34,486 bases of DNA from a virus (IMGVR_UViG_2645727868_000009); one strand, 5' to 3'. Positions 15,184-34,250 are shown, numbered from the stretch's first letter. Numbers and translations are program-made. The notes: generated by a model not told the origin, from the letters alone.

Positions 15184-16308
15184 TTACTCATCTCCTGCGT
15201 AACGGGCGACATCCTCTGGATCGACGCCCATCATTGAACAAATGGCGATATCGACATCGACGTCATCGCCGGTTTTAATCTGCGCCGGGGCAGGCGACGG
15301 CGTTTTGGGGGCTTTGCCGCCGGTCTGTGTCTGACTGAGCGCAACAAGTTTCGGTGCGTTCTCCAGCCAGGACTTAAAGCCGTTGATATCGCGGCTGGCG
15401 TAATCTTTCGCCCAGTCTTCCTGTGCCGGAAGCAGTCGCCCGTCAGACAGCGCCGCCTGAATCAGTGTCCCGGCTTCGGCCTCACCGGACTGTTGCGCCA
15501 GTGCGGCATAACGCCCCTGAAGTTCTTCGAAGGCAGCAAGGGAAATGTGTTTTGACGGGTCATAGGCACTGGCTGACAGGCTGGCGATTTGCTCATCTTT
15601 CTGATTCAGCAGGGCCAGCAGGCTGACGGATGCCGCCGCCGTTCCCTGACCGTTCGAAATCATGTCAACGACCTTTTGCAGCTCGTTTTTGATATCTTCC
15701 GCCGTTGAGGTAACCGGGAGGTTAAGCATCCAGCGCAGACTGGACAGCAAATCGTTTAACAGTTCTTCATCCACTGTTGTGGTCTCCGTTTCAGTTGACA
15801 GACTCGCCAGACGGCTGGCCGCAGCCAGCATGACCGCGTCCATACCGTCCAGCGCCGGGGTATTGGTCAGTGCGGCGTGTAACAGTTCAATGACTTCGCC
15901 GCGCCGGTTGTATCCAAATACCGGGGAAATAAATTTGTACTCACCGGCGGCAATCATGGCCGCCGCGTTCTCCGTCCACTCCACACCGATGGCATACAGG
16001 CCTGAACCTTCACGCCATTCCACCTGGCTGAACCAGCCCGCCGCCGGGGCGGGCTTGCCGTTGTTTACGGCGCGCAGCGTCTGATGTTCGTAATCAATGA
16101 CAAAAGGCGTGGTACGGGCGGCCACCTGCGCGACAAGCTGCGCGGCCAGTTCAGCGGTCAGCACCCATTTACCGCTTTCGACTTCATCTGTATACGGGCG
16201 ACCATCCACCGCGCTGAACTCGCCCGCCGGTAACAGCTGGATTTCGCTGTGGGTTGCTTTAGTAATTTCGAGGCTTAACGCCGCAATGTTCATCTTCATA
16301 CGCGGCAT
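15184..16308 (-). CDS. I: Head protease/scaffold protein I
   Basis: ORF with conserved-looking core (IQLLPAGEF...) and Ala-rich scaffold-like C-terminal half. Track start 16353 is GTG; first ATG is 16308, with further in-frame ATGs at 16299 and 16293. Start uncertain. Confidence 0.75.
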   Translation of the reverse strand: MPRMKMNIAALSLEITKATHSEIQLLPAGEFSAVDGRPYTDEVESGKWVLTAELAAQLVAQVAARTTPFVIDYEHQTLRAVNNGKPAPAAGWFSQVEWREGSGLYAIGVEWTENAAAMIAAGEYKFISPVFGYNRRGEVIELLHAALTNTPALDGMDAVMLAAASRLASLSTETETTTVDEELLNDLLSSLRWMLNLPVTSTAEDIKNELQKVVDMISNGQGTAAASVSLLALLNQKDEQIASLSASAYDPSKHISLAAFEELQGRYAALAQQSGEAEAGTLIQAALSDGRLLPAQEDWAKDYASRDINGFKSWLENAPKLVALSQTQTGGKAPKTPSPAPAQIKTGDDVDVDIAICSMMGVDPEDVARYAGDE

Positions 16309-16339
16309 GATGACGGAAGGGGAACACGGGGTACTGTGG

Positions 16340-16356
16340 AGGGTGTTCAGCACCCT
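16340..16356. promoter_or_regulatory. Palindromic motif AGGGTG-TTCAG-CACCCT upstream of gene I (copy 1 of a shared element)
   Basis: Perfect 6-bp arms with 5-bp spacer; embedded in a 29-bp block (16328-16356) that recurs at 24488-24516. Confidence 0.5.
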
Positions 16357-16391
16357 GCCATAACGGGAAAGGATAAAAGGGGAAATAAAAC

Positions 16392-16480
16392 CGTTTTTAA
16401 AACCCTTTTAAAAACGATTCTGACGGCATTTATGGGGTGCGGTGCTGTTATGCCTCATCCGTGAGGCGTTTATGCCGTCA
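16392..16480. other. Structured G-I intergenic region with nested inverted repeats
   Basis: AT-rich perfect palindrome CGTTTTTAAAA-CCC-TTTTAAAAACG (16392-16416); 9-bp inverted repeat TGACGGCAT...ATGCCGTCA (16421-16429 / 16472-16480) enclosing hairpin GCCTCA-TCCG-TGAGGC (16452-16467); repeated TTATGCC. Confidence 0.6.
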
Positions 16481-16508
16481 CAGCCGATTACAGCGCGTTT
16501 GTCGCCAT

Positions 16509-17060
16509 TCAGTCAATCACACGCGCAAAATAGCGGTTTGCGGTGTTCTCCAGCTCGTCGATGTCGTCCTGCACGAGCTGAAGGAAGGGGCGCGCGGGCA
16601 TGTTGACCGTATATGCCCCGACAGTTGCGCTCTGCACAAAATTACTGTTGCGCTTTTTCACAAAGCGGGTGCTGACGCTGCCGTTTTTGTACTGTTTAAA
16701 ATACAGGTTCTGCGTCCGTGCCTGATGGCGGATTTCGCCGCCTTCGTTGTGGATACGGGCATAACGGACGTTTGTCCCGACCGTGGCCTCGTTATTGTTA
16801 ACCGCAGAGCGGATACTGGCAGCCAGTCGCCCGGACTTCTGAAGGATTTGCCCGGGGCCGCGTCGCTTCGCATAAGCCGGACTCCAGCCCATCCATTTCG
16901 GGCGACCCTGTTGTTCAAAGTTAGTCTCAACCGCATCCAGTATGGAACCCGCAAGTGCCGTCATCAGATCGCGCCGGTCCTTCACGGAGCGAATCAGTTT
17001 CCCCAGCGTGGTGTTATACGCGCTTAAATCAATCTTAATATCCAGTTTACCGTTGCTCAT
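16509..17060 (-). CDS. G: Virion morphogenesis protein G
   Basis: 183-aa ORF, ATG start overlapping F stop (ATGA); position after F gene as in Mu. Confidence 0.75.
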   Translation of the reverse strand: MSNGKLDIKIDLSAYNTTLGKLIRSVKDRRDLMTALAGSILDAVETNFEQQGRPKWMGWSPAYAKRRGPGQILQKSGRLAASIRSAVNNNEATVGTNVRYARIHNEGGEIRHQARTQNLYFKQYKNGSVSTRFVKKRNSNFVQSATVGAYTVNMPARPFLQLVQDDIDELENTANRYFARVID

Positions 17061-18223
17061 GATGCCTCCGGGGCGTCCTGCATAACCCAGTCTGTCAGCA
17101 CGTCATCCTCAACCGTCACCACCGACCAGCGGTCGCCCGACTGTAACGCATACCGCCACGCGTTGCCGTCCTGCGTGACATGCTCCGCCCGTTCGATGGT
17201 CTGCTGCATCAGCACATAATCAGCGGTGGTCGGGGGCGCGTCTGTTGCACTGAGGCGCTTCATGACGTCAGCCGTAAGGTTTACCGTCTGCCGTGCAGCG
17301 CCCGTGGCGGCGACCTGTTCCGGTGAACGGATGGCCAGCGGATATCGCTGGCGCGCATCCAGATCGCTGACGTTCGCCATCCCCCGGGCAAAGTCCGGCC
17401 CGGTCAGGGTGCCAGTGACGTACTGGCGGGCGCTGCGGTAATCGTATTTTTCCAGCTCCGGTTGCCATGCCACCCGACCGGGATTAAAACCGAAGCCCGG
17501 GTCGGCGGTATACACGGAGCCGTCCGGCATCTTCAGCCCCATTGTTCTGATGGTCTGGCCCGGCTGGCCATATTCCTGCTCAACCTCAACCAGTCGCCCC
17601 TCGCTGCTCTGTACCGTCAGGCCATATTTCTCCACATCCGACGCCGAACGCGCCCGGATACGGCAGCGGCATCCGTATCCGTCCGGCGCGTAGAAATACT
17701 CCCAGACCGGGTCATCCGCCCGGGCGGTAAAACCGTTCAGGGCGGCGTGTTTCGGGCGGGTGTGAAGGTCCATCACCGCCACGCGCTCAAAATAAGGCCG
17801 GTCGGCCACGTTCGCCATCTGCTGCTGATAACGCCCGGCGTTATATGACGACTGAATATTGGTATCAAATATCGTGCGCAACCGGCGCGGCGTCAGCTGT
17901 CTGCCATGCAGTTCGCCGGTGTCCTCGTCCACAATCAGCTTTTTACCCAGCCAGCCTTTTGACTCCAGCAGTGGTTCCATTTGTGCTGCAAACTCCCGGA
18001 ACGTCCCGCCGTCAGCCAGTGCCGCCGTCAGGCCATCACGGATATCCTTCAGCACATCCAGTTTCAGCACGCCTGCCACCGTGAACGCCCGGGCGTTGGC
18101 GATATCCTTCACATCGTGCCAGCGGAAGCCGATAACGTATCCCTTGCTTTCGAAATACTTAATCGCTTCTTCCGGTTTCAGGGTGTACGCATAACCCAGG
18201 TCAACATCGTCAGCTGTCGGCAT
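17057..18223 (-). CDS. F: Minor head protein F (Mu gp30-like)
   Basis: 388-aa ORF, ATG start, follows portal gene; Mu F-like head morphogenesis family by gene order and size. Confidence 0.8.
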   Translation of the reverse strand: MPTADDVDLGYAYTLKPEEAIKYFESKGYVIGFRWHDVKDIANARAFTVAGVLKLDVLKDIRDGLTAALADGGTFREFAAQMEPLLESKGWLGKKLIVDEDTGELHGRQLTPRRLRTIFDTNIQSSYNAGRYQQQMANVADRPYFERVAVMDLHTRPKHAALNGFTARADDPVWEYFYAPDGYGCRCRIRARSASDVEKYGLTVQSSEGRLVEVEQEYGQPGQTIRTMGLKMPDGSVYTADPGFGFNPGRVAWQPELEKYDYRSARQYVTGTLTGPDFARGMANVSDLDARQRYPLAIRSPEQVAATGAARQTVNLTADVMKRLSATDAPPTTADYVLMQQTIERAEHVTQDGNAWRYALQSGDRWSVVTVEDDVLTDWVMQDAPEAS

Positions 18224-19805
18224 TTAGTCGCCCCCAGATATCCGCCACAAAGAATGCCTGTGTCAGCAACTGCCGCAGCGTGTCATCCGGCAGTTCCGGC
18301 CAGGCTTCCGCCAGTACGTTCATGGCCTCGTCCGCATCCCGGCCTTCCTGTATGGCCTGCACCAGCGGGGCCACCAGTTCGTTCATCCCCTGCGCGATGG
18401 CCTCTGCCGGAAGTTCTGCCCGGTCGATGGCGCGTTGTGCCGGGTCGTCCTCCTCGTTGTCCTGCTGACTGAGTGCTGCAACATTCAGCCGCTCACGCAG
18501 CTGGCTGAGGCCCGCCTGCACAGGGAGACGCTGTGCCACCGGCACCAGTACCTCTTCGCCGTCTTTCGGGGTGGGGATACCGGTTTTTTTGCGCACCCAC
18601 GACGCCGGGATATCCTTCATCCCCACATTGTTGAGCAACACGCTGACGGCTTCCGCCACACCCTTAATGTCAGCTTCCTGCTGCACATCAAACACCAGGC
18701 GCGGAAGACGGCGTGACGGGATATCCTGCCAGCCGTTGAGACTGGCCATCATCTGTATCAGACTGCTGAACATGCCGGACAGCTGGCGTGCATCAGCGGT
18801 CAGAATGTCGTGCCGGACCTCGTTATGGACATTACCCAGTGCGTTGGTGGAGGTTTTACCGTCGGCCTGGCTGGTCAGCGTACTGCCCAGAATCACTTTT
18901 GAGGTGGTACGCTCCGCCCATTCCACCATCGACATGAATGCCTCCGGTCCGCCGGAGGCAGCTTCCTTGAACTCGATTTCGTTACCCTGCGGCAGGGCTG
19001 CCACCGCTTCATGCCCCAGATTGACCAGCGCCTCAAGAATGTTGTCCCGGTCCGCGTCACTGGTGCCCTGTGCATAGTACGCAATGCGCGCTGGAAGACC
19101 GTAAATCTCCAGAAATTCCGCCATATCACGCAGCGCAAAGTTTTTAAACAGATACGGCCAGACCAGTACGCGGAACAGGCCGGATGAACCCAGGAACCCC
19201 GACCGGGCGTTGTAACGGTGAACCAGCCAGCCGAACGGCCACAATGCGGAACCGTCCTTACCGTCTTCCCCACGGTTGCCGTCATCCAGCCGGAGTTCGT
19301 CATTGTGTTCCGGCAGAGTTATGAACCAGTTATGCGGGCGCAGCGTCACCGCATCCGGTAACCATGTTTTATCCACGAACGCCCAGCTGATTTCCTGACA
19401 GCTGAAGCCGTAACCGACACTGCTCATCCCGTTGAGGATGATGTCCTCCATGTCCGGGATGCCGTGCAGCCATTCATCCACGGCGGCGGCCAGCTCCTTT
19501 TCTGCCTTCGAGGCATTGCGGGGCGGCTCCACCGACCAGTCCAGCGTCAGCAACGCTTTTTTGCGCTTTTCCATCTCGGCGAACAGATGGCCATCACGTT
19601 CTTCCATATCCGCAAACAGCATCGCCTGCGCCGGAAGATAACCGCGTTCGGCTGCTTCCAGAATACGCGGCAGTTTTCTGATGTTCAGACCACGGGACGG
19701 GTGATCGGGATAGATGCGCAGTCGTTCCGCCACTCTGACCGACTGCGTTGTTTTGAGTGCCTCACGTTTCAGCGGGCGTCCGTAAATATCAACAAGCTGT
19801 GCCAT
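18210..19805 (-). CDS. Portal protein (Mu gp29-like)
   Basis: 531-aa ORF, ATG start with AGGAGG upstream, acidic C-terminal region; directly downstream of terminase large subunit. Confidence 0.85.
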   Translation of the reverse strand: MAQLVDIYGRPLKREALKTTQSVRVAERLRIYPDHPSRGLNIRKLPRILEAAERGYLPAQAMLFADMEERDGHLFAEMEKRKKALLTLDWSVEPPRNASKAEKELAAAVDEWLHGIPDMEDIILNGMSSVGYGFSCQEISWAFVDKTWLPDAVTLRPHNWFITLPEHNDELRLDDGNRGEDGKDGSALWPFGWLVHRYNARSGFLGSSGLFRVLVWPYLFKNFALRDMAEFLEIYGLPARIAYYAQGTSDADRDNILEALVNLGHEAVAALPQGNEIEFKEAASGGPEAFMSMVEWAERTTSKVILGSTLTSQADGKTSTNALGNVHNEVRHDILTADARQLSGMFSSLIQMMASLNGWQDIPSRRLPRLVFDVQQEADIKGVAEAVSVLLNNVGMKDIPASWVRKKTGIPTPKDGEEVLVPVAQRLPVQAGLSQLRERLNVAALSQQDNEEDDPAQRAIDRAELPAEAIAQGMNELVAPLVQAIQEGRDADEAMNVLAEAWPELPDDTLRQLLTQAFFVADIWGRLNADS

Positions 19806-19808
19806 TAA

Positions 19809-21449
19809 TTACCATCCTCCTGAACCAAAACGCCCGCCACGGTCACGCCCGCTGCTGCGTGGGGTGTGTATCTGAAATTTTGCGCTGCGCGATACCGCCA
19901 GCGTCCACAGCATGTGCAGACAGTCCGGGCCATCATCGTGGTCGGCTTTGGGGTAGTGGCGCAGCTGGTCAATCAGCGTCTGATGTGCCGGACTGATGCG
20001 GATCAGGCCGTTGGCCATATGCGGCTGAAGGGACTCAATACGCAGCGCTTTATCCTCCAGCGGGATGACCGGCAGCGCCGGAACCGGCACGCCCAGCGCC
20101 GCCGAACGCTCAACCAGCACGGTACGCAGAAACTCCTGAAACTGGACGGACTCAAACGACCAGCACAGACAGTGGTATTCCCGCTGATACTTAATCACGT
20201 CTTCGATAAGTTTGTTTGGTAGACGTCGGCGGATATCGGCTTCAACCACATCCAGAATGCCGGTAAAGCGGTTAAAGCCCCCCACGAGAATGGCCGACGG
20301 GTCGCGGTTTTTGTTTTTCTTCCCGAGACTGGGGTCAACAGCACCATAAAACACCCATTCATCAAGACGGTTAACCCAGAACTTAATGCAGCCCGCAAAC
20401 AGCGCATCTTCACCGCTGACCGGGTCGTTCTGGTATTCAGAATCAAAGGTGTCATGACCGTCACGGACACGGATTTTCATCAGTGCCAGCAGGGGACGCG
20501 CCGCCCATGACACCACCGACCCGGCGAGCATGTCGGCTTCGTTCTGTCGGTAAAGTGCCTCTGCTGCTTCCGGCTGTTTGTTGCGGATGAGTTCTTCCCA
20601 CTCGTCCCACAGCTTCATATTGGCAGGCCACTGAATGACGGCCTTAAAACGGGCCGTTTTCCACATCGGGTTATTGAGTGTGCGCGACAGTACGGAGTCG
20701 TAATGCAGGATGGTTCCGATATAAATAATATCTGTTTTACCACCAGCCTCGCCCAGCGGCATCACGGTTTTGGTGAGCCAGTCATGCAGCTTGTCGCGCT
20801 GCTCCGGGTTACGCACCATCTCGTCGTTCTCGATGTCGTCGAGGATAACCAGGTCAGGACGGTACGGACCGTGGCGCAGACCACGCAGCTTTTTACCACT
20901 ACCGGCAACGGTCACCTTGATATTGTTGGCCGTGACGATGGTCCCCATACGCCAGACGCGACCCTGCCCGCACACTTCCGGGAAATCGTTTTTTAAACGG
21001 GGGTTAAATTCCAGTTCAGCCTTGATGGCTTCCAGCATCGGATAAGCCTGGTCGATACTGTCCATAATGATGACCGGATAATGCTTAATGGCCCGGATAA
21101 TGGTCCACAGGGTAAACAACTGAGTCACCAGCGTGGATTTTGCTTCACCACGGGGCGCGGCGATGGCGTCGTTCTCCGGGTCCGGGCTTGCCACAACCTG
21201 TGGCAGACGGCTGAACAGGTATTTATGCAGCTCGCTTTTTGCCGGGTTGCGGACGTAGTGCGGGAAATAGTTTTCGACAAAATAATCGTAGCCCGTCACC
21301 GGGTCACAGACTGCCGCCCGGCGGGCCTGTGTGGCCTGCGGGTTTACATCGAACCCCAGACATTCAGCCTCGATGGTCTGGCGGAGGTTGGCGATGTACT
21401 CCTGCAGGCTTCTCTGAAACTCTTTAATGGAAAGTTTACATTTTGCCAC
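19809..21449 (-). CDS. Terminase large subunit (Mu gp28-like)
   Basis: Long ORF with ATPase-like N-terminal region and nuclease-like C-terminal region. No in-frame ATG near the 5' end; candidate starts are GTG at 21447-21449 (AGGTG 4 nt upstream, directly after the methyltransferase stop) or TTG at 21506. Confidence 0.8.
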   Translation of the reverse strand: MAKCKLSIKEFQRSLQEYIANLRQTIEAECLGFDVNPQATQARRAAVCDPVTGYDYFVENYFPHYVRNPAKSELHKYLFSRLPQVVASPDPENDAIAAPRGEAKSTLVTQLFTLWTIIRAIKHYPVIIMDSIDQAYPMLEAIKAELEFNPRLKNDFPEVCGQGRVWRMGTIVTANNIKVTVAGSGKKLRGLRHGPYRPDLVILDDIENDEMVRNPEQRDKLHDWLTKTVMPLGEAGGKTDIIYIGTILHYDSVLSRTLNNPMWKTARFKAVIQWPANMKLWDEWEELIRNKQPEAAEALYRQNEADMLAGSVVSWAARPLLALMKIRVRDGHDTFDSEYQNDPVSGEDALFAGCIKFWVNRLDEWVFYGAVDPSLGKKNKNRDPSAILVGGFNRFTGILDVVEADIRRRLPNKLIEDVIKYQREYHCLCWSFESVQFQEFLRTVLVERSAALGVPVPALPVIPLEDKALRIESLQPHMANGLIRISPAHQTLIDQLRHYPKADHDDGPDCLHMLWTLAVSRSAKFQIHTPRSSGRDRGGRFGSGGW

Positions 21450-21450
21450 G

Positions 21451-22191
21451 TCACACCTGCGCTGCTTCTGCCTGCGCTTTTTCGATACGTGCGCAGGCGA
21501 TATCAAAATACTGGTTAGTCATTTCAATGCCGGTAAACCGTCCGCCACGGGCAAGTACCGGGATGGCGGTGGTGCCGCTTCCCATAAACGGATCGAGAAC
21601 GTGCGCATCCGGTGCCAGCGGTTTAACCAGCTCGGCCATCAGCTGAACCGGCTTTGCGGTCATGTGCAGTTTTTCGGACGGGACAACACGCTGCGTAATC
21701 ACACCCGGGAACGGGCCACCGTGCGGACATTTGTCGAGTTTTCCGTTGCTGCCCCAGACCACATACTCGGCCTGATGCCGGAAATAGCCGGTGTGTGGCG
21801 CACGGGAAGCCTGCGTTTTATCCCAGACAACAAGACCACGCCACAGCACACCACCGGCCTGAAAAACGTCGGTCATGGTGGGAAGCTGTCGCCAGTCACT
21901 GAACACCATGACATAACCACCGGGGCGCACAAGGCGGGCAGCCCCGGACATCCACAGGGTGCTCCAGTATGCCCAGCTGCGCTGGTCGCGGTTATCCCCG
22001 CTGAACTCGGCATACTGGGTGTGACCGACATACTTGTCCGAAGGGGCCATGCTGCGGTCTGATTTATGTGTGCCACCACTGCTGTAAGGCGGGTCGGTAA
22101 TGACGGCATCAAAACGTTCGGATAACGCCGGCAGCACATCAAGAACATCACCGCAATACAACGTTGCGTTACCAATAATCTGTTTTTGCAT
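21451..22191 (-). CDS. DNA methyltransferase (beta-class N6-adenine/N4-cytosine type)
   Basis: 246-aa ORF, ATG start. DPPY catalytic motif near N-terminus (VITDPPYSSGG) and FMGSGTT AdoMet-binding motif near C-terminus, i.e. motif IV before motif I. No neighbouring restriction endonuclease. Confidence 0.85.
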   Translation of the reverse strand: MQKQIIGNATLYCGDVLDVLPALSERFDAVITDPPYSSGGTHKSDRSMAPSDKYVGHTQYAEFSGDNRDQRSWAYWSTLWMSGAARLVRPGGYVMVFSDWRQLPTMTDVFQAGGVLWRGLVVWDKTQASRAPHTGYFRHQAEYVVWGSNGKLDKCPHGGPFPGVITQRVVPSEKLHMTAKPVQLMAELVKPLAPDAHVLDPFMGSGTTAIPVLARGGRFTGIEMTNQYFDIACARIEKAQAEAAQV

Positions 22192-22202
22192 TACAAATCC
22201 CG

Positions 22203-22220
22203 AATATCAGACGGCCCGGA
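22203..22220. other. GC-rich hairpin between gp27-like gene and methyltransferase gene
   Basis: GGCCCGG-AAAA-CCGGGCC perfect 7-bp stem in the 46-bp gap between the two genes. Confidence 0.5.
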
Positions 22221-22237
22221 AAACCGGGCCGCTGTGG

Positions 22238-22738
22238 TTAACTGAAATTATCCTCAAGCTCTTTAGCGAAGCCTTCGAGCACCTCAAGAAACGGGGCATA
22301 CTGTGCCGGGTGACGCTCCTTGATGAACGCGCCGAGCCGCTGCACCACTTCCAGTGCCGTGGCGAGCCGGTCGGTTTCCGGCAGGATTTTTTTGCTGCTG
22401 GCCACCGCCTTACTGAGACTGTCGGACAGACTCGCCAGCAGTTCGACGGACTCCTGCGGCGGGATGTCCGGGTTCTGGTTCAGCCGTTCAAGCGTCGTCT
22501 GACACTTCACCACCAGACTGATAAGCACGGTGCGGGCGACACTTTCCAGTCCGTCACCGGCGAGCGCGTGAGCGGCCCGCAGCTTGTCCCAGTCGTCGCC
22601 GTTCTTCATCGCCTGCGTTTTCCAGCGCCGCGCGGTGTCGTGCGGCACGGCGAACTTCATGGCGACGATATCCAGCGGAAGCTGGTCAAAGATGTACCCG
22701 TTACGGACTTTGTCCCTGATATCCTGTGACCACGCCAT
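22238..22738 (-). CDS. Mu gp27-like protein (putative terminase small subunit)
   Basis: 166-aa ORF, ATG start; position upstream of terminase large subunit; DUF1804-type protein recalled from Mu-like prophages. Confidence 0.6.
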   Translation of the reverse strand: MAWSQDIRDKVRNGYIFDQLPLDIVAMKFAVPHDTARRWKTQAMKNGDDWDKLRAAHALAGDGLESVARTVLISLVVKCQTTLERLNQNPDIPPQESVELLASLSDSLSKAVASSKKILPETDRLATALEVVQRLGAFIKERHPAQYAPFLEVLEGFAKELEDNFS

Positions 22739-22980
22739 TAAGTGTCCTTCTGAGCCTGTTCAATCCTGCGCTGAACTTCGTCGGGATTTTCAAGAACAAA
22801 CACGTTTTTCCCGGTATCCAGTTCAATGACCGTGCCATCATGTGTACCGTACTGACGGTAAAAATGGGTGATGCGTTCAGCGAGCACCATGACAGCGCCA
22901 GCACCTCCTGAACCTCTGTATTCTGTAAATCTGATAATGCTCACTGTGTCAGACCTTCGAAAAATCAGTTCTGTGAACAC
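22738..22980 (-). CDS. Hypothetical protein
   Basis: 80-aa ORF whose only upstream start is GTG without a clear RBS; kept because it fills the gap between the lysis genes and the gp27-like gene. Confidence 0.3.
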   Translation of the reverse strand: MFTELIFRRSDTVSIIRFTEYRGSGGAGAVMVLAERITHFYRQYGTHDGTVIELDTGKNVFVLENPDEVQRRIEQAQKDT

Positions 22981-23147
22981 TGCCGGATGCCGTCAATAAT
23001 CCGGCAGACCTGCGCCGCCGCGTCTAACAGCTGTCCCGTTCTGTTAATGTCTGTGCATCCCACCGGAAGCAACATCACCAGAAACAGGGCCAGAACACAG
23101 CGCGCGGCTTTACGTGGCGTTCTGTGGGTCCAGTGCTGACGCGTCAT
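22965..23147 (-). CDS. Putative small lipoprotein of the lysis cassette
   Basis: 60-aa ORF; ATG overlaps endolysin stop (ATGA); basic N-terminus then hydrophobic stretch ending LLPVGC (imperfect lipobox). Confidence 0.4.
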   Translation of the reverse strand: MTRQHWTHRTPRKAARCVLALFLVMLLPVGCTDINRTGQLLDAAAQVCRIIDGIRQCSQN

Positions 23148-23689
23148 ATCGCCACGCGCTCCTTCAGCCAGCCATAAACAAACGATTCGTTAGCCTCGCG
23201 TTTCTCCGCCAGTTCCAGATAGCGGTCCCCCTGCGTACAGTTCAGGGCCGTCAGCATCACCCGTTCACCGTCCTGACCGCGATTATTCAGGAAGGCGCGC
23301 AATGCACTGATGGTACGAGGCCCGATGCGTCCGTCTGCGTCCATATCCGGGTACAGCCTGCCGCGCAGATTGAACACATTCAGCCAGCGCTGAAGCATTC
23401 TGGACGCCACGGTTGGCCCCATATTCACACCGGTATCACACAGCTCTGCGGCAATATCAGGGGATAATGCGGCGACCTGGTCGAATCGCGGACCGTACCA
23501 GTAATCGGCTTCAAGGATGTCCAGCGCCTGCTCGCGGGTTAAATCGCGCATATCACCACGGTATCCGTGGGCACGGGCGACTTTTTCCGTAATGCCCCAT
23601 TTGGTCGGACCGCCCTTATCATCCGGGTGATTGACATAACCACCTTCTTTGCCCAGGACTTCATCAAAAATTTTATCTTTTGATTTCAT
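23144..23689 (-). CDS. Endolysin (GH108-like muramidase with peptidoglycan-binding C-terminal domain)
   Basis: 181-aa ORF, ATG start with GAGG upstream; N-terminal EGGYVNHPDDKGGPTKWGIT motif typical of GH108-family phage lysozymes. Confidence 0.75.
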   Translation of the reverse strand: MKSKDKIFDEVLGKEGGYVNHPDDKGGPTKWGITEKVARAHGYRGDMRDLTREQALDILEADYWYGPRFDQVAALSPDIAAELCDTGVNMGPTVASRMLQRWLNVFNLRGRLYPDMDADGRIGPRTISALRAFLNNRGQDGERVMLTALNCTQGDRYLELAEKREANESFVYGWLKERVAI

Positions 23690-23969
23690 GTGGATGCCTC
23701 AGTAACGAAAGGATTTTTGACAAATTCCCGTGCGCCCACACGATAAGCGCACAGAAAACCAGATTCAGCGCCACAACCAGCCAGCTGGAATGTGTGTACG
23801 TACCGGACAGCCAGCGGAACGGGATGATGACGTAGCCGAGCATCAGCCAGTACGCCAGCCAGGTAATCATCGGTTTATGCGCTGCACCGTGGCGGCGATA
23901 CACAAACAACCCCAGCACAATGGCGAGACACAGCCAGACGTTCACGATACCGGCAAGGCTACTTTCCAT
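23673..23969 (-). CDS. Lysis-cassette membrane protein
   Basis: ORF with ~3 predicted transmembrane helices between holin-like gene and endolysin. Track start 23975 is GTG; ATG at 23967-23969 preceded by GGAGGGGG. Confidence 0.45.
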   Translation of the reverse strand: MESSLAGIVNVWLCLAIVLGLFVYRRHGAAHKPMITWLAYWLMLGYVIIPFRWLSGTYTHSSWLVVALNLVFCALIVWAHGNLSKILSLLRHPHEIKR

Positions 23970-24351
23970 TTCCACCCCCTCCGCCGCGCAGTCTGGAAAA
24001 CAGGCCGAACAGCGATGAAATTTCCTGTTGATAAAGAAAGGTCAGTATCTTGATGGATAACGCCGAGACACCGACCGCACACAATGCATCGAGTGGCTTG
24101 TCGTTGTAGTGGGTCAGCCACTGCATCAGTGACGCAGCCACGCCAGCCCCCAGAACGCCAACCACAAACGCGACGAGCAGGTGGATAGCCATTCGCCATA
24201 CCGGGATTTCTTTCTGCTGCGTGACAACAAAAAGCGCTCCGGCAAACGCGCCCACCACAACCCCGAAATCGGTATTGGTGAGAAGGCCAAACACACTGGC
24301 ACCACCGATGGTGACTGCCACAGCTCCGCCGCCTGATAAGGGTTCAGACAT
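23959..24351 (-). CDS. Putative holin
   Basis: Multi-pass membrane protein immediately upstream of endolysin. Start set to ATG at 24349-24351 with AGGAGA upstream; the track ORF extends further to a non-ATG start. Confidence 0.5.
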   Translation of the reverse strand: MSEPLSGGGAVAVTIGGASVFGLLTNTDFGVVVGAFAGALFVVTQQKEIPVWRMAIHLLVAFVVGVLGAGVAASLMQWLTHYNDKPLDALCAVGVSALSIKILTFLYQQEISSLFGLFSRLRGGGGGNGK

Positions 24352-24497
24352 GAGTTTCTCCTGTAAATCTGAGCCACTGACGGCCCGTAAATAACACCCG
24401 GTCAAAGGCACAGAATGACTTTTGCCGGGCGCTATCCCTTAAGGTGCCTTGTGGTCTGAGTGGACAGGGTAAACGGTATGCTGTGGTGGGTACTGCT

Positions 24498-24516
24498 GGG
24501 GGTGTTCAGCACCCCC
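24498..24516. promoter_or_regulatory. Palindromic motif GGGGGTG-TTCAG-CACCCCC upstream of the lysis genes (copy 2)
   Basis: Perfect 7-bp arms, same TTCAG spacer and same upstream GGGTACTG block as copy 1; located between the 95-aa gene stop and the holin start. Confidence 0.5.
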
Positions 24517-24539
24517 GGCAGGTTGATTATCTGGATGGG

Positions 24540-24827
24540 TTAAAGAGAAGCGAGTTTTAATGGTGGCTTATAACATGCCCGCGCCAGCAGGTTAGCTCTT
24601 TCCACGGCATTACGCATTTCCCGTTCTGCGTCAATCATTCTGTTTACGGCTGACAGCACTTCATCATGATTCGTTACTGATTCCGGGCTTTGGGCCTGTT
24701 TCGCCAGGTAACTGGATAAACTGCACATTTCAGCATGTCGGCGACGGGCTGCATCCCGGGCCTTGTCTGAAAATGCGGTATATTCACCGAGTACTGCATA
24801 GTCGATATCGGTGTCAGAACGCATCAT
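24540..24827 (-). CDS. Hypothetical protein
   Basis: 95-aa ORF with ATGATG start and strong RBS (AAGGAGA, 7 nt spacer); between Mor/C gene and lysis genes. Confidence 0.5.
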   Translation of the reverse strand: MMRSDTDIDYAVLGEYTAFSDKARDAARRRHAEMCSLSSYLAKQAQSPESVTNHDEVLSAVNRMIDAEREMRNAVERANLLARACYKPPLKLASL

Positions 24828-24854: not shown

Positions 24855-25322
24855 TTAATCAAAAAGCCCCACCTGGGTGGGGCTTTTCAGCGAAGTCTGT
24901 TTTTGTCGTCGGTGTATCAGTTGCCATGCGTACCGGTCTGAAATGCCGTAACGGGGACAGAGCAGTGCCAGCGCCTGCCGGTGTGAGCATCCGCCTTTTA
25001 CATGCTGCTGTAAATCAGCCATAAAACGGGTGTTACGCAGGGCACGTAACGCATGATCGCAACGGGGAATGTAAAACGGTGCGCCGCCAAGAAAACGGAT
25101 CAGTTTGTTGATTTCGTCTTCGGTCAGCACGTCATGTAACAGGGCATGGACACCGCCGGTGCGTTCGGCGTGTACGCCGGTTTTACCGCTTAACGTCACG
25201 CCACCAAAAGAACGAATCAACCGGGTCAGGGCGGGGAAGCCAATCACGCTAATCAGTTGCTGCACGGAATCGGGCAGCAGTGCCTGCGCATCGCGAAGAT
25301 CTGTTTCACTGAAGGTCTGCAT
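24855..25322 (-). CDS. Mor/C-family transcriptional activator
   Basis: 155-aa ORF, ATG start with GGAGA RBS; contains the GGxxxYIPR motif (FLGGAPFYIPR) and C-terminal helix-turn-helix-like segment characteristic of Mu Mor/C activators. Confidence 0.8.
   Translation of the reverse strand: MQTFSETDLRDAQALLPDSVQQLISVIGFPALTRLIRSFGGVTLSGKTGVHAERTGGVHALLHDVLTEDEINKLIRFLGGAPFYIPRCDHALRALRNTRFMADLQQHVKGGCSHRQALALLCPRYGISDRYAWQLIHRRQKQTSLKSPTQVGLFD
24861..24887 (-). terminator. Bidirectional terminator-like hairpin overlapping the Mor/C stop codon
   Basis: Perfect GC-rich inverted repeat GCCCCACC/GGTGGGGC flanked by AAAAA on one side and TTTT on the other; the minus-strand U-tract precedes the stop. 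Confidence 0.5.
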
Positions 25323-25351: not shown

Positions 25352-25357
25352 ATTATA
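25352..25357 (-). promoter_or_regulatory. Candidate -10 hexamer of a promoter for the Mor/C-family gene
   Basis: Perfect TATAAT on the minus strand 30 nt upstream of the Mor/C ATG, with a poor -35 region (CTGTAC at 17-bp spacing) and the terminator dyad just upstream. Confidence 0.4.
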
Positions 25358-25384
25358 GCCATACATGATCGCCTGTACAGACCA

Positions 25385-25409
25385 TAAAAAACCTCCGCGT
25401 TTGCGAAGG
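25385..25409 (-). terminator. Rho-independent terminator after the secreted-protein gene
   Basis: Minus-strand RNA forms a 7-bp stem with one G-U pair (CCUUCGC-AAAC-GCGGAGG) followed by UUUUUU; lies 13 nt after the stop at 25422. Confidence 0.6.
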
Positions 25410-25421
25410 TTTTTGTTCATA

Positions 25422-32207: not shown

Positions 32208-34250
32208 TTAACGGTTGTTTGTGCCGTTTTTCTTTAAATTGCGTTCGCGTTCAGATGCGAATAAATAAAGTTCTTCTTTTTCCTTTTTCTCCAGGCGTTC
32301 CAGTCCATATCCCAGATTAAAGTCAGGCTTCTGCGTAATGGCCGGGGTAAGCTCGCGTTTAGCCTCTTCGATTTTCTGCGTGGCCCGTGCAATGCGGCCC
32401 TTGACGCGTTTCTCCAGTTTTTGTTCGATAACTGGTTTAGCGAAGGCATCAACCTTGTTACCGTTCCAGATGGCATCGCAGATATAAGAGCCATCAGCCC
32501 GCCGGACAATGACGCTGTTTGCATCATGAATATCGTAACTGACCCTGACTTCATTCCCGTGCTCTGCGGCCAGATCATATGAGTAATAAATATTGTTGAA
32601 TAACTGAATTTCCCCGCGAAATGTTTTGCGCGTCACTTCCGGCCTGAACATTTCATGCAGTTCTTCCGGCGACAGGAAATCAATTTCAACATTCTGCTCT
32701 TTTATCAGTTTCCGGCGATACGCTGCCGGGCTGTAATGCTCGCCATCCTCTTTGCGAGGAAGGCTGCTGTGTGGCCGGTTGTTATAGCGTCTGACCTCCA
32801 GCTCTATGGCTGCCATCAGTTGCTCAAAGGTAGGGATTTCATCCCTCGCCTTAACCTGCCGTTTTGTCAGCTCTTTCCCTTTGTGGGTGGCCTTAATGGC
32901 TGACTGCATAATCCGTTGCTGCATCATTACGGTTTCCTTGTCTGCATCCCTTGCGCAGTACGTTTGGAAACTCAGGGCCACGTCTTTGGGTATTTCCTTG
33001 TTAACCCTTTCAATCACCCCGCGCCCCTGCGGGTTACCTGGTATCCCCGTGTGATGTTCCACACCCAGACGGGGCAGAATCCCGGTAATATCGGCATCAA
33101 GCACCAGGTTTTTTTCGCCGCCCCCGTTATCGGAGTAATAAATCAGCGGTATCCCGTGCTGTGCCATGCCGTAACGTAACGCATCAGCAACGGCTATCAC
33201 GTTCTCCGACAGGGACAGTGACCAGCCCACAATAAAGCGTTGTCCTGCATCCATAACCAGCGTCACTTCTGGCCGGAAAATATTGCCGGTCAGGGGGTTA
33301 AACGCGGTCATTTTCATACAGTGACCATCCCCGACCCATACCGCATTAACCGGTAATGATGTCCACTCGCGCCGCACAAAGGGATTGAGCGAACGCCAGG
33401 CTGAACCTGTGGAGCGGAAACGCTCTTTAACAATCACCGGGACGCTGCTTAACACCCGTCTTACTGCGTGAACTGAAGGCAGTGCCGCCAGCATTCCCGC
33501 ATCGTTCGCGTGTTTTTCATGCCACCAGGCTGAAAACTCGCGATACGCATATTCAACGGTCGGGCGCTTCCATGAGCGATAGAACATAAAGAAATCGCTC
33601 AACCACCAGACCTGCTCCCACGGTGTTCCCTTATGATGACCGGGAGCCAGTAACGCCAGTAACTGATTGGCATCACCGCGCGCCATCACCCAGCTGGAGT
33701 ACCAACTATCCAGGCTGCCTGTGCTGACACCGGTTCGCTTTCCCTGACGTGCATTTGCAGTATTAGCTGCTTCGATAATGCGGTCAGGTAACGCCCCCAT
33801 GCGCACACCATCAACGATGTGCTTTAACGCGGCCTTCCTAGTCATTCCGGCGTATTCACGCAGTTTATGCACTTCAGTAGCCAGCAATATCCGCGCATCA
33901 GCGATGGCCTTTTGCTTGTCAGTCAGTGCCTGGACTTCGCGTAATGCCAGTTCCGGGCATTTGACCATCACCTCCAGTTCATCGCGAACGGCGACGTTTT
34001 TAACTGCCTTCTGCTCAACCTCGGCGGGCAGTTGCGTATCTTCCAGGACCTGATGGGTCAGGCGCTTACGTAAAACTTTCTGCGCTTCAGCGGGCAGGCA
34101 GTCGATGTGATACTCGAATGCTTTGGTGCCTTCACGCTTGCGCTTCCATTCCGGGTGCGTCTCTGTGATCCGATTGAGCGTCCAGCGCACCCCCTGAACT
34201 GTACCGGGCAAACCAGGAAGACCGGCCAGCTCATTGGCTGAATAAAACAT
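32208..34250 (-). CDS. A: Transposase A (MuA-like DDE transposase)
   Basis: 680-aa ORF, ATG start overlapping ner stop (TAATG); N-terminus ANELAGLPGLPGT parallels the Mu A N-terminal DNA-binding region; size and position match MuA. Confidence 0.9.
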   Translation of the reverse strand: MFYSANELAGLPGLPGTVQGVRWTLNRITETHPEWKRKREGTKAFEYHIDCLPAEAQKVLRKRLTHQVLEDTQLPAEVEQKAVKNVAVRDELEVMVKCPELALREVQALTDKQKAIADARILLATEVHKLREYAGMTRKAALKHIVDGVRMGALPDRIIEAANTANARQGKRTGVSTGSLDSWYSSWVMARGDANQLLALLAPGHHKGTPWEQVWWLSDFFMFYRSWKRPTVEYAYREFSAWWHEKHANDAGMLAALPSVHAVRRVLSSVPVIVKERFRSTGSAWRSLNPFVRREWTSLPVNAVWVGDGHCMKMTAFNPLTGNIFRPEVTLVMDAGQRFIVGWSLSLSENVIAVADALRYGMAQHGIPLIYYSDNGGGEKNLVLDADITGILPRLGVEHHTGIPGNPQGRGVIERVNKEIPKDVALSFQTYCARDADKETVMMQQRIMQSAIKATHKGKELTKRQVKARDEIPTFEQLMAAIELEVRRYNNRPHSSLPRKEDGEHYSPAAYRRKLIKEQNVEIDFLSPEELHEMFRPEVTRKTFRGEIQLFNNIYYSYDLAAEHGNEVRVSYDIHDANSVIVRRADGSYICDAIWNGNKVDAFAKPVIEQKLEKRVKGRIARATQKIEEAKRELTPAITQKPDFNLGYGLERLEKKEKEELYLFASERERNLKKNGTNNR

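What the first reader, a model, noticed from the sequence alone, without database searches (positions are those of the whole stretch)
16328..24516. A 29-bp palindrome-containing block is shared upstream of head gene I and the lysis genes
The blocks GGGTACTGTGGAGGGTGTTCAGCACCCT (16328-16356) and GGGTACTGCTGGGGGTGTTCAGCACCCCC (24488-24516) sit in the same orientation in the only two sizeable non-coding gaps that precede late-gene blocks. Their core is a perfect inverted repeat (GGGTG / CACCC) around a conserved TTCAG spacer. In Mu, lys and I are headed by promoters (Plys, PI) activated by the C protein, and a Mor/C-family gene is present here at 24855-25322. The element could therefore be an activator binding site, or a conserved 5' stem-loop on late mRNAs. 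The distances to the downstream start codons differ (~30 nt for I, ~150 nt for the holin), which argues against a simple fixed-position promoter model and makes the function uncertain.
Basis: partly seen in the sequence, partly recalled or inferred. Interest (0 to 1): 0.7.

Follow-up and report, generated by a model that had tools for sequence, protein, structure and literature searches.

The report
Late promoters of a Mu-like prophage
The shared 27-bp block is most likely the activator-binding part of the late-gene promoters of an E. coli Mu-like prophage, built with the same geometry as phage Mu's C-dependent promoters but with a different recognition sequence, so it is an expected feature rather than a new kind of element.

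Summary
The blocks at 16329-16355 and 24488-24514 are 24/27 identical, where chance predicts none. All genes here are on the minus strand.

It is an overlapping 16-bp imperfect dyad, GCTGA-N6-TCAGC, followed 23 bp later by a -10-like hexamer: TACCCT (lys), CATCAT (I). The dyad centre lies 31.5 bp upstream of the hexamer, which puts it at about -43.5, exactly as at Mu Pmom and Plys. The block spans about -55 to -29, which matches the Mu C footprint.

A matrix trained only on relatives finds three sites in the window. The two reported ones are joined by a third at 4420-4435, upstream of the baseplate gene gp46. The differing distances to the start codons reflect leader length, not promoter geometry.

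A Mor/C-family gene (24855-25322) sits just upstream of the lys site. Binding and start sites are inferred, not measured.

The RNA stem-loop reading is not supported.

By-product: at I and gp46 the ATG lies 6-7 nt after the hexamer with no Shine-Dalgarno sequence, which predicts leaderless mRNAs. At gp46 a covarying RNA hairpin buries the AUG. The leaderless arrangement recurs in 54 of 67 non-redundant gene I loci.

The parts
24488..24514 (-). P_lys upstream block (about -55 to -29): activator site plus adjacent -35-region bases (AGTACCC)
   Evidence: In E. coli-lineage variants the module is conserved from GGGGTGCTGAAC onward, while the upstream gene and, in L252, the leader are replaced.
24495..24510 (-). 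16-bp imperfect dyad GCTGAACACCCCCAGC (GCTGA-N6-CCAGC), the proposed Mor/C-family activator site of P_lys
   Evidence: The matrix trained on relatives scores it 17.0 bits. Orthologous sites follow the Mor gene in L121-L125, L127-L129 and L268-L274.
24466..24471 (-). -10-like hexamer TACCCT of P_lys. The predicted start is near 24459, giving a leader of about 108 nt to the holin ATG at 24351 (SD AGGAGA).
   Evidence: It lies at offset 39 from the dyad, the same as in relatives (CACAAT, CAGAAT, TACACT). E. coli variants read TATCCT and TATCTT and keep T1, A2 and T6.
16329..16355 (-). P_I upstream block (about -55 to -29)
16336..16351 (-). 16-bp imperfect dyad GCTGAACACCCTCCAC of P_I
   Evidence: The matrix trained on relatives scores it 20.7 bits. 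Orthologues have a perfect GCTGA-N6-TCAGC in L121, L122, L125 and L264.
16307..16312 (-). -10-like hexamer CATCAT of P_I. It overlaps the first in-frame ATG (16308).
   Evidence: It lies at offset 39 from the dyad. CATCAT, CATGAT or TATGCT occupy the same offset in relatives.
16297..16299 (-). Second ATG of gene I, 7 nt after the hexamer with no Shine-Dalgarno sequence: the predicted leaderless start
   Evidence: RefSeq/PGAP starts I here. In L125 the first ATG is out of frame. The arrangement is found in 54 of 67 non-redundant I loci.
4420..4435 (-). Third site: 16-bp imperfect dyad GCTGAACACCCTCACC between gp45 and gp46
   Evidence: It is the best hit of the matrix trained on relatives, at 24.1 bits. 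The same element lies upstream of gp46 in many IMG/VR lineages.
4391..4396 (-). -10-like hexamer CAGACT. The gp46 ATG (4382-4384) starts 6 nt after it, so A is predicted to be +1.
   Evidence: For comparison, the Mu Plys hexamer is TAGACT.
4380..4406 (-). RNA hairpin UCCAUGCUGCCA-GAC-UGGCGGCAUGGA. It encloses the hexamer and pairs the gp46 AUG.
   Evidence: Folding gives -23.8 kcal/mol, z = -6.3. On 26 lineages 88% of cells are paired, against 28-45% in slid controls; there are 14 double-change cells (0 of 500 shuffles reach this) and the G.U pairs fall on the coding strand.
24855..25322 (-). Mor/C-family transcription activator gene, the only one found among the window ORFs scanned and the candidate binder
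   Evidence: Pfam Mor gives 28.5 bits against a cut-off of 24.9, and phrog_836 'late transcriptional activator' gives 3.5e-42. It shares the FLGGxxFYIP motif with Mu C and aligns at 27% with Mu Mor over the HTH half. No other early ORF scanned matches Mor.

Best explanation
The blocks are the upstream halves of sigma-70 late promoters that need a phage activator. They are the equivalents, in this E. coli Mu-like prophage, of Mu's C-dependent Plys and PI. A third promoter sits in front of the baseplate gene gp46.

Each promoter has three features. The first is a 16-bp imperfect dyad (consensus GCTGAAC[C/A]CC[C/T]TCAGC) whose centre is 31.5 bp upstream of the -10 hexamer, that is at about -43.5. 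The second is the absence of a usable -35 hexamer. The third is a weak -10 hexamer that keeps A at position 2 and T at position 6.

The proposed mechanism is as follows. A dimer, or dimer of dimers, of the Mor/C-family protein encoded at 24855-25322 binds the dyad and the flanking bases. The whole conserved block, -55 to -29, matches the Mu C footprint. The bound activator then recruits or activates host RNA polymerase. This switches on lysis genes from about 24459, head genes from about 16299 and baseplate/tail-fibre genes from about 4384.

What the sequence shows: the motif, its three locations, its conservation and the fixed spacing. What is inferred: binding by the Mor-family protein, activator dependence and the transcription start sites.
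For: (1) The block is non-random: 2 matches against 0.00 expected.

(2) A matrix built only from 18 sites in other genera picks exactly three sites in the window, all on the coding strand. They score 24.1, 20.7 and 17.0 bits. The next best hit scores 12.2, and 30 shuffles give a mean maximum of 8.6 and a highest of 15.2.

(3) Relatives carry the motif both upstream of I and just after their Mor homologue, at the lys position. These relatives are Intestinirhabdus, Buttiauxella, Trabulsiella, Photorhabdus, Xenorhabdus, Aquitalea and Ectopseudomonas. The Mor homologues are 52-55% identical in L121-L125.

(4) Among relatives only, there are 51 non-redundant sites on the gene strand and 5 on the opposite strand. 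An A2/T6 hexamer sits at offset 39 in 31 of 51 sites (8 more at offset 40, 3 at 38), against 0-8 at other offsets. The mean -10 score peaks there, at 0.0 against about -4.5 elsewhere.

(5) The geometry equals Mu's. At Pmom the TTAT-GCCCCA-ATAA centre is 31.5 bp before TAAGAT. At Plys TAGACT has the same offset from my inferred placement of the C site. The literature describes a 16-bp imperfect dyad centred at -43.5, a footprint from -30 to -55, recognizable -10 hexamers and no -35 (PMC2582627), and the consensus TTAT-N5-6-ATAA (PMC12867686).

(6) Mu Plys and PI share 10 bp just downstream of the C site (PMC4461284). Here lys and I share CAGTACCC at -36 to -29.

(7) In E. coli variants, mosaic joints replace the gene upstream of the lys site and, in L252, the leader. 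The module from -55 to about +5 is kept. The -10 varies only at positions 3-5 (TACCCT, TATCCT, TATCTT).

(8) More distant phages have other 12-16-bp dyads shared between the I-upstream and post-Mor positions. This is as expected if each activator has its own site.
Against: There is no experimental evidence of binding, activator dependence or start sites for this phage.

The -10 hexamers are weak (TACCCT, CATCAT, CAGACT). In the window the right arm of the dyad is degenerate (CCAGC, TCCAC, TCACC).

The E. coli lineage also conserves GGGT to the left of the dyad and CAGTACCC to its right at two of the three sites. The 16-bp dyad alone does not explain this.

The activator is only distantly related to Mu Mor and C (E about 1e-4 pairwise).

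The recognition sequence differs from Mu's TTAT-N6-ATAA, so specificity cannot be transferred.

The model implies leaderless mRNAs for I and gp46, which is unusual for abundantly made proteins in E. coli.

The motif search patterns fixed 13 of the 16 positions, so only positions 13-15 of the dyad are an unbiased test of symmetry.
Confidence: 0.8

Rival explanations
1. The block encodes a conserved RNA stem-loop (GGGUG-CUGAA-CACCC) at the 5' end of late mRNAs. It would act in stability, processing or antitermination.
For: The stem exists in the window. At the lys site it extends to 12 pairs and folds at -21 kcal/mol, z = -4.7.
Against: The I-site block does not fold better than shuffles (z = -1.4), and its best fold uses other pairs. 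In 51 non-redundant sites from relatives the stem forms a mean of 1.55 of 5 pairs, and the position that would have to be G at -1 is never G. E. coli variants change A to T or C in the 3' arm with no compensation. The third site lacks the 5' arm. The block lies upstream of a -10 hexamer held at fixed spacing, so late transcripts would not contain it. There is no Rfam family match.
Confidence: 0.04
2. At the lys site the extended hairpin (CUGCCGGGGGUG...CACCCCCAGCAG) marks or stabilises the 3' end of the upstream Mor/ORF95 transcript. This would be in addition to, or instead of, a promoter role.
For: A strong hairpin follows directly after the stop codon of the 95-aa ORF. In L264 the same place has a 13-bp perfect inverted repeat. 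Mu also has a hairpin between C and Plys.
Against: There is no U-tract on the coding strand, so it is not an intrinsic terminator. An intrinsic terminator already overlaps the 3' end of the Mor ORF. This reading does not explain the same block at I, or the third site, where the extended stem is absent. In L264 the long repeat is centred on the 16-bp dyad, as expected for an extended protein site.
Confidence: 0.1
3. The shared block is a recombination linker or mosaic-joint sequence. It would be kept because it allows exchange of gene modules between phages, with no regulatory role.
For: In E. coli variants, different genes abut the lys block on its upstream side and one variant has a different leader.
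Against: A linker would not need a -10-like hexamer at a fixed 23-bp distance, a strong strand bias (51 sites against 5), dyad symmetry, or the same -43.5 geometry as Mu promoters. Promoters are natural module boundaries, so the joints fit the promoter model.
Confidence: 0.04
4. The motif is a promoter for an alternative (ECF-like) sigma factor, with GAAC as the -35 element.
For: GAAC resembles ECF -35 cores, and CGT follows about 16 nt later at the I site.
Against: No sigma-factor match was seen among the 20 window ORFs scanned against Pfam. CGT is absent at the lys and gp46 sites. The conserved downstream element is a sigma-70-type NAnnnT hexamer 32 nt after GAAC.
Confidence: 0.02

Closest known systems
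Phage Mu C-dependent late promoters (Plys, PI, PP, Pmom)
   Same: Both have an imperfect dyad of about 16 bp with a C-rich 6-bp spacer (Mu Pmom GCCCCA; here ACCCCC or ACACCC), centred 31.5 bp before the -10 hexamer (-43.5). The conserved block, -55 to -29, matches the C footprint (-55 to -30). Both have a recognizable weak -10 and no -35. Sites lie before the lysis genes, before gene I and before tail genes. The activator gene lies just upstream of the lys promoter. The lys and I promoters share extra bases right after the site (PMC2582627, PMC4461284, PMC12867686).
   Different: The recognition sequence is GCTGA-N6-TCAGC, not TTAT-N5-6-ATAA. There is one Mor/C paralogue instead of two. There are three promoters, not four, and no mom gene. 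The tail promoter is at gp45/gp46, not before P. The I and gp46 promoters are predicted to give leaderless mRNAs, which the Mu sequence does not suggest. Nothing here has been tested experimentally.
Mu middle promoter Pm activated by Mor
   Same: The same protein family and the same class of dyad at about -43.5 (PMC2582627, PMC4287176). In Photorhabdus and Xenorhabdus relatives with two paralogues, a copy of the motif also precedes the second paralogue.
   Different: In the window the single Mor-family gene is preceded by a terminator and a near-consensus sigma-70 promoter, not by a dyad site.
P2 Ogr / P4 Delta-dependent late promoters (recalled from memory, not tested here)
   Same: These are temperate-phage late operons, each headed by a promoter without a -35 and with a shared dyad for a small phage activator.
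   Different: The activator family is different (zinc finger), as are the site (TGT-N12-ACA) and its position (about -55).
Leaderless lambda cI mRNA from PRM (recalled from memory, not tested here)
   Same: The transcript is predicted to begin at the A of the AUG, with no Shine-Dalgarno sequence.
   Different: Here the arrangement is on late structural-gene operons and is combined with an activator site. At gp46 there is also a hairpin that hides the AUG in read-through RNA.

Membership tests
Mor/C-family activator-dependent promoters (Mu late/middle type) | An imperfect dyad-symmetry element of about 16 bp upstream of the promoter | tested here: met
   GCTGA-N6-TCAGC is perfect in L121, L122, L125, L141 and L264 and imperfect in the window. 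The positions not fixed by the search, 13-15, read A in 41 of 51 sites, G/A, and C in 34 of 51.
Mor/C-family activator-dependent promoters (Mu late/middle type) | Dyad centred at -43.5, overlapping the -35 region | tested here: met
   The centre is 31.5 bp before the first base of the -10 hexamer at all three window sites. The same distance holds at Mu Pmom and, by my inferred placement of the C site, at Plys. This is relative to a predicted start, not a mapped one.
Mor/C-family activator-dependent promoters (Mu late/middle type) | A recognizable -10 hexamer and no consensus -35 hexamer | tested here: met
   The hexamers are TACCCT, CATCAT and CAGACT, at an offset enriched in relatives (31 of 51 at offset 39). 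The -35 position reads AGTACC or TGATTC. The consensus promoter scan finds no sigma-70 promoter at these sites.
Mor/C-family activator-dependent promoters (Mu late/middle type) | A Mor/C-family activator encoded by the same phage | tested here: met
   Pfam Mor scores above the gathering threshold, and phrog_836 matches. The FLGGxxFYIP linker and the HTH align with Mu C and Mor.
Mor/C-family activator-dependent promoters (Mu late/middle type) | Sites head the late operons (lysis, head, tail) | tested here: met
   There are three sites: before the holin, before I and before gp46. The positions are orthologous in relatives.
Mor/C-family activator-dependent promoters (Mu late/middle type) | Activator binds the site and transcription depends on it | not testable with these tools
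   This needs EMSA or footprinting and an activator deletion. The only indirect support is co-occurrence: loci with a detectable homologue of this activator have GCTGA-type half-sites.
Mu C binding site in the strict sense | Consensus TTAT-N5-6-ATAA | tested here: not met
   The window sites read GCTGAACACCC[C/T]C.... They are therefore not targets of Mu C itself. They are analogous sites for a diverged paralogue.
Structured cis-RNA element (5' UTR stem-loop) | Base pairing conserved, with compensatory changes, inside the transcript | tested here: not met
   The stem forms a mean of 1.55 of 5 pairs in relatives, and the substitutions are uncompensated. There is no Rfam hit. The block is upstream of the predicted -10.
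Intrinsic (Rho-independent) terminator | A GC-rich hairpin followed by a U-tract on the transcribed strand | tested here: not met
   A hairpin is present only at the lys site (-21 kcal/mol). It is followed by UACCCACCAC, with no U-tract.

The most novel reading that the evidence does not exclude
The block is one half of a conserved 'late promoter cassette' that is widespread in non-Mu transposable phages of Proteobacteria. The cassette has a lineage-specific 12-16-bp dyad at about -43.5 and a weak -10 hexamer, with the gene's ATG placed 6-7 nt after the hexamer. As a result the head gene I, and here also the baseplate gene gp46, would be translated from leaderless mRNAs. In many lineages, and at gp46 in this window, an inverted repeat that covaries at the RNA level encloses the hexamer and pairs the AUG. 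The start codon would then be hidden in read-through transcripts from upstream promoters and free only in the transcript made by the internal activator-dependent promoter. That would tie translation of these genes to the activator. The supporting counts are as follows. Fifty-four of 67 non-redundant I loci have the hexamer plus 6-7 nt plus ATG arrangement, against 8.6% of all ATGs. At motif sites the figure is 31 of 51. For the hairpin, 88% of cells are paired against 28-45% in slid controls, with coding-strand G.U pairs.
Probability: 0.5. Interest if true: 0.65.

Novelty: new member of a known kind. Interest (0 to 1): 0.42.

Why it matters
The result gives a concrete regulatory map for a Mu-like prophage whose activator-to-holin region is found in 58 of 5,426 complete E. 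coli genomes. The map has three late promoters, their predicted start points and one candidate activator.

It shows that the Mu C/Mor promoter geometry (dyad at -43.5, no -35) is kept across distant transposable phages while the recognition sequence changes. That offers a natural series of activator/site pairs for studying specificity in the Mor/C family, whose activation complexes have only recently been solved.

The by-product would add a new layer of late-gene control in this phage group. It consists of predicted leaderless late mRNAs and an AUG-hiding hairpin. It can be tested directly by 5' end mapping.

Tried and rejected
It was uninformative, so protein-anchored loci were used instead.

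The phage GenBank collection has no close relative of either region. The best hit was 72% identity over 29% of the query.

The consensus promoter scan finds no sigma-70 promoter at the sites, as expected for activator-dependent promoters. It flags the lys palindrome as 'terminator-like' on the non-coding strand, which I rejected because no genes are on that strand and the T-run is poor.

The PDB sequence search gives only marginal hits to Mu C (E = 0.5).

The original Mu promoter-mapping paper (Margolin et al. 1989, PMC209851) is not held. Mu start sites were therefore taken from later papers and from the Mu sequence itself.

Two literature searches found no description of this motif, or of leaderless late mRNAs in Mu-like phages, in the held library. 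The library is incomplete.

Rfam and tRNA scans of the window were empty.

I considered an extended 26-34-bp dyad (GGTACTGCTG-N8-CAGCAGTACC, perfect in L264) as the true site. It is not symmetric in the window, so I report it only as a possible extended contact.

I tried to test co-variation between activator and site in lineages with other dyads. I went no further than noting that tblastn homologues of this activator occur in loci with GCTGA-type half-sites.

Full report
**Setting.** The window is almost the whole of a Mu-like prophage of E. coli. Its genes all lie on the minus strand and run from the transposase (32208-34250) to the tail fibre (1-2379). The Mor-to-holin region is 100% identical to complete E. 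coli chromosomes such as NZ_CP082831. Related copies of that region occur in 58 of 5,426 complete genomes. In NZ_CP082831 the prophage sits inside another, lambdoid prophage.

**Observation.** The two blocks are real. They lie at 16329-16355 and 24488-24514, are 24/27 identical and share the same orientation. Chance predicts no such pair. On the coding strand they read GGGTGCTGAACACCCTCCACAGTACCC and GGGTGCTGAACACCCCCAGCAGTACCC. The first lies in the 209-nt gap between G and I, and the second in the 188-nt gap between a 95-aa ORF and the first holin. A third, partial copy (GTGCTGAACACCCTCACC) lies in the 53-nt gap between gp45 and gp46.

**What is conserved.** I fetched loci encoding relatives of protein I from one genome per species and from IMG/VR, and loci encoding relatives of gp46.
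- In Intestinirhabdus, Buttiauxella, Trabulsiella, Photorhabdus, Xenorhabdus, Aquitalea and Ectopseudomonas the sequence (G/A)CTGAAC(C/A)CC(C/T)TC... occurs twice. One copy is just upstream of I. The other is 7-8.5 kb upstream, directly after the Mor homologue, which is 52-55% identical in the five closest relatives.
- In several of these it is a perfect 16-bp dyad, GCTGA-N6-TCAGC.
In 51 non-redundant sites from relatives his stem forms on average 1.55 of 5 pairs.
- The three dyad positions not fixed by my search pattern read A (41 of 51), G/A and C (34 of 51), as dyad symmetry requires.
- In E. coli variants the A inside his 3' arm changes to T or C with no compensating change.

**Promoter geometry.** In every lineage a -10-like hexamer follows the dyad after 23 bp.
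- In the window the hexamers are TACCCT (24466-24471), CATCAT (16307-16312) and CAGACT (4391-4396). Relatives have CACAAT, CAGAAT, TACACT, TATGCT, AATACT and similar.
- Among relatives only, a hexamer with A at position 2 and T at position 6 occupies offset 39 in 31 of 51 non-redundant sites (8 at offset 40, 3 at 38), against 0-8 at any other offset. Sites lie on the gene strand 51 times and on the opposite strand 5 times.
- A matrix trained only on relatives ranks the three window sites first, at 24.1, 20.7 and 17.0 bits. The next hit scores 12.2 and the highest of 30 shuffles scores 15.2.
- The dyad centre is 31.5 bp before the hexamer.
- I measured the same distance in the Mu sequence at Pmom. 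There TTAT-GCCCCA-ATAA is followed by ACCACA, 19 bp and then TAAGAT.
- Plys also fits: TAGACT lies at that same offset from my inferred placement of its C site.
- The literature places the 16-bp C site at -43.5, with a footprint from -30 to -55, recognizable -10 hexamers and no -35 (PMC2582627). Its consensus is TTAT-N5-6-ATAA (PMC12867686).
- Its 3' part (CAGTACCC, -36 to -29) parallels the 10-bp match that Mu Plys and PI share just downstream of the C site (PMC4461284).

**Start-codon distances.** The distance to the start codons differs only because the leaders differ. The leader is about 108 nt to the holin ATG, which has a good Shine-Dalgarno sequence, and essentially 0 nt at I and gp46.

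**Population evidence.** In E. coli-lineage variants the gene upstream of the lys site exists in two unrelated alleles, and one variant (L252) has a different leader. The stretch from GGGGTGCTGAAC to just past the predicted start is retained. The hexamer varies only at its less important positions (TACCCT, TATCCT, TATCTT). The block behaves as a promoter module bounded by mosaic joints.

**The activator.** The gene at 24855-25322 is the only Mor/C-family gene found among the ORFs scanned.
- It shares the family's FLGGxxFYIP linker with Mu C and aligns with Mu Mor over the HTH half at 27% identity.
- It cannot be assumed to have Mu's specificity, and the site is indeed different.
- More distant phages have other dyads shared between the I-upstream and post-Mor positions. 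Examples are GCTGAAGCCCTTCAGC, GCTGAAACACTTCAGC, GCTGACAYGCGTCAGT, GGAACCYGTTCC and TGGCGTCSGCCA.
- This is consistent with each activator having its own site.
- Binding is nevertheless an inference.

**Rivals.**
- An RNA stem-loop is not supported. The pairing is not conserved, the I block does not fold better than shuffles (z = -1.4), the block lies upstream of the -10, and there is no Rfam match.
- The extended hairpin at the lys site (-21 kcal/mol) has no U-tract, so it is not an intrinsic terminator. A role in stabilising the upstream transcript's 3' end cannot be excluded.
- A pure recombination linker or an ECF-type promoter does not explain the fixed sigma-70-type hexamer, the strand bias or the symmetry.

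**By-product: predicted leaderless mRNAs.**
- At I the second in-frame ATG (16299) lies 7 nt after the hexamer. This is the start chosen by PGAP, and it is the only in-frame start in L125.
- At gp46 the ATG (4384) lies 6 nt after the hexamer.
- Neither has a Shine-Dalgarno sequence.
- An ATG 6-7 nt after the hexamer occurs at 31 of 51 motif sites in relatives.
- It also occurs at gene I in 54 of 67 non-redundant loci from many proteobacterial lineages, against 8.6% of all ATGs.
- The arrangement predicts leaderless mRNAs.

**By-product: the gp46 hairpin.**
- At gp46 a hairpin at 4380-4406 (-23.8 kcal/mol, z = -6.3) encloses the hexamer and pairs the AUG.
- Across 26 lineages 88% of cells are paired, against 28-45% in slid controls. 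Fourteen cells change on both sides (0 of 500 shuffles reach this).
- The wobble pairs are G.U on the coding strand, which indicates selection on a sense RNA.
- My reading is that read-through transcripts hide the AUG and that the transcript from the internal promoter exposes it. This is a hypothesis and needs 5' end mapping.

**Verdict.** The finding is a correct observation of an expected feature: the late promoters of a Mu-like prophage. They have a recognition sequence that I did not find described and the canonical Mor/C geometry. It is a new member of a known kind. The leaderless and hairpin arrangement is the part that could be new.

Noticed in passing
window 4380-4406 (minus strand); L166-L245 upstream of gp46: A strong RNA hairpin encloses the -10-like hexamer and base-pairs the gp46 AUG. 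The arms covary between lineages (CUGCC/GGCAG, CCCCG/CGGGG, CCGCG/CGCGG), and the G.U pairs fall on the coding strand.
   Followed up: yes
window 16297-16312 and 4382-4396; 67 non-redundant gene I loci among L121-L324: The start codon lies 6-7 nt after a -10-like hexamer, with no Shine-Dalgarno sequence. This holds in 54 of 67 gene I loci, against 8.6% of all ATGs, and predicts leaderless late mRNAs across many Mu-like phages. The Mu sequence itself does not show this at I.
   Followed up: partly
window 16381-16420 (minus strand), G-I gap: An invariant AT-rich stretch, GAATCGTTTTTAAAAGGGTTTTAAAAACGGTTTTATTTCC, is conserved in E. coli variants and in other genera. It aligns with part of the region next to Mu's annotated strong gyrase site, which lies in the same G-I gap. 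It may be an equivalent central gyrase site.
   Followed up: partly
window 25352-25412 and 24861-24886 (minus strand): The Mor-family gene is preceded by a terminator-like hairpin with a T-run (ACCTTCGCAAACGCGGAGGTTTTTT) and a near-consensus sigma-70 promoter (TGTACA-16-TATAAT). A second intrinsic terminator (GCCCCACCCAGGTGGGGCTTTTT) overlaps the last codons of the Mor ORF. How the activator gene is kept silent in the lysogen is unclear.
   Followed up: no
L250, L252, L253, L256, L258-L260, L262 and L264, compared with window 24515-24580: The gene between the activator and the lys promoter exists in at least two unrelated alleles. One is the 95-aa phrog_7152 ORF seen here; the other is a different gene. 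The mosaic joint lies immediately upstream of the promoter block. L252 also has a different, shorter leader.
   Followed up: partly
L123 538-966 and 1613-2059, sites at 1514 and 1556; the same in L124, L272, L289 and L304: Photorhabdus and Xenorhabdus relatives carry two Mor/C paralogues. They also have an extra copy of the late-type motif, with hexamer AATACT, just upstream of the second paralogue. This suggests either a Mor-to-C cascade with similar sites or positive autoregulation.
   Followed up: no
L325 (NZ_CP082831.1 2789000-2836000): The Mu-like prophage is flanked on both sides by genes of another, lambdoid prophage. Those flanking genes include truncated capsid and prohead-protease pseudogenes. 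RefSeq splits the 792-aa tail-fibre ORF (window 1-2379) into a pseudogene plus a shorter CDS.
   Followed up: no
window 21451-22191 (minus strand): A DNA methyltransferase gene sits inside the lysis/packaging late operon. There is no mom/com pair and no fourth late promoter.
   Followed up: no
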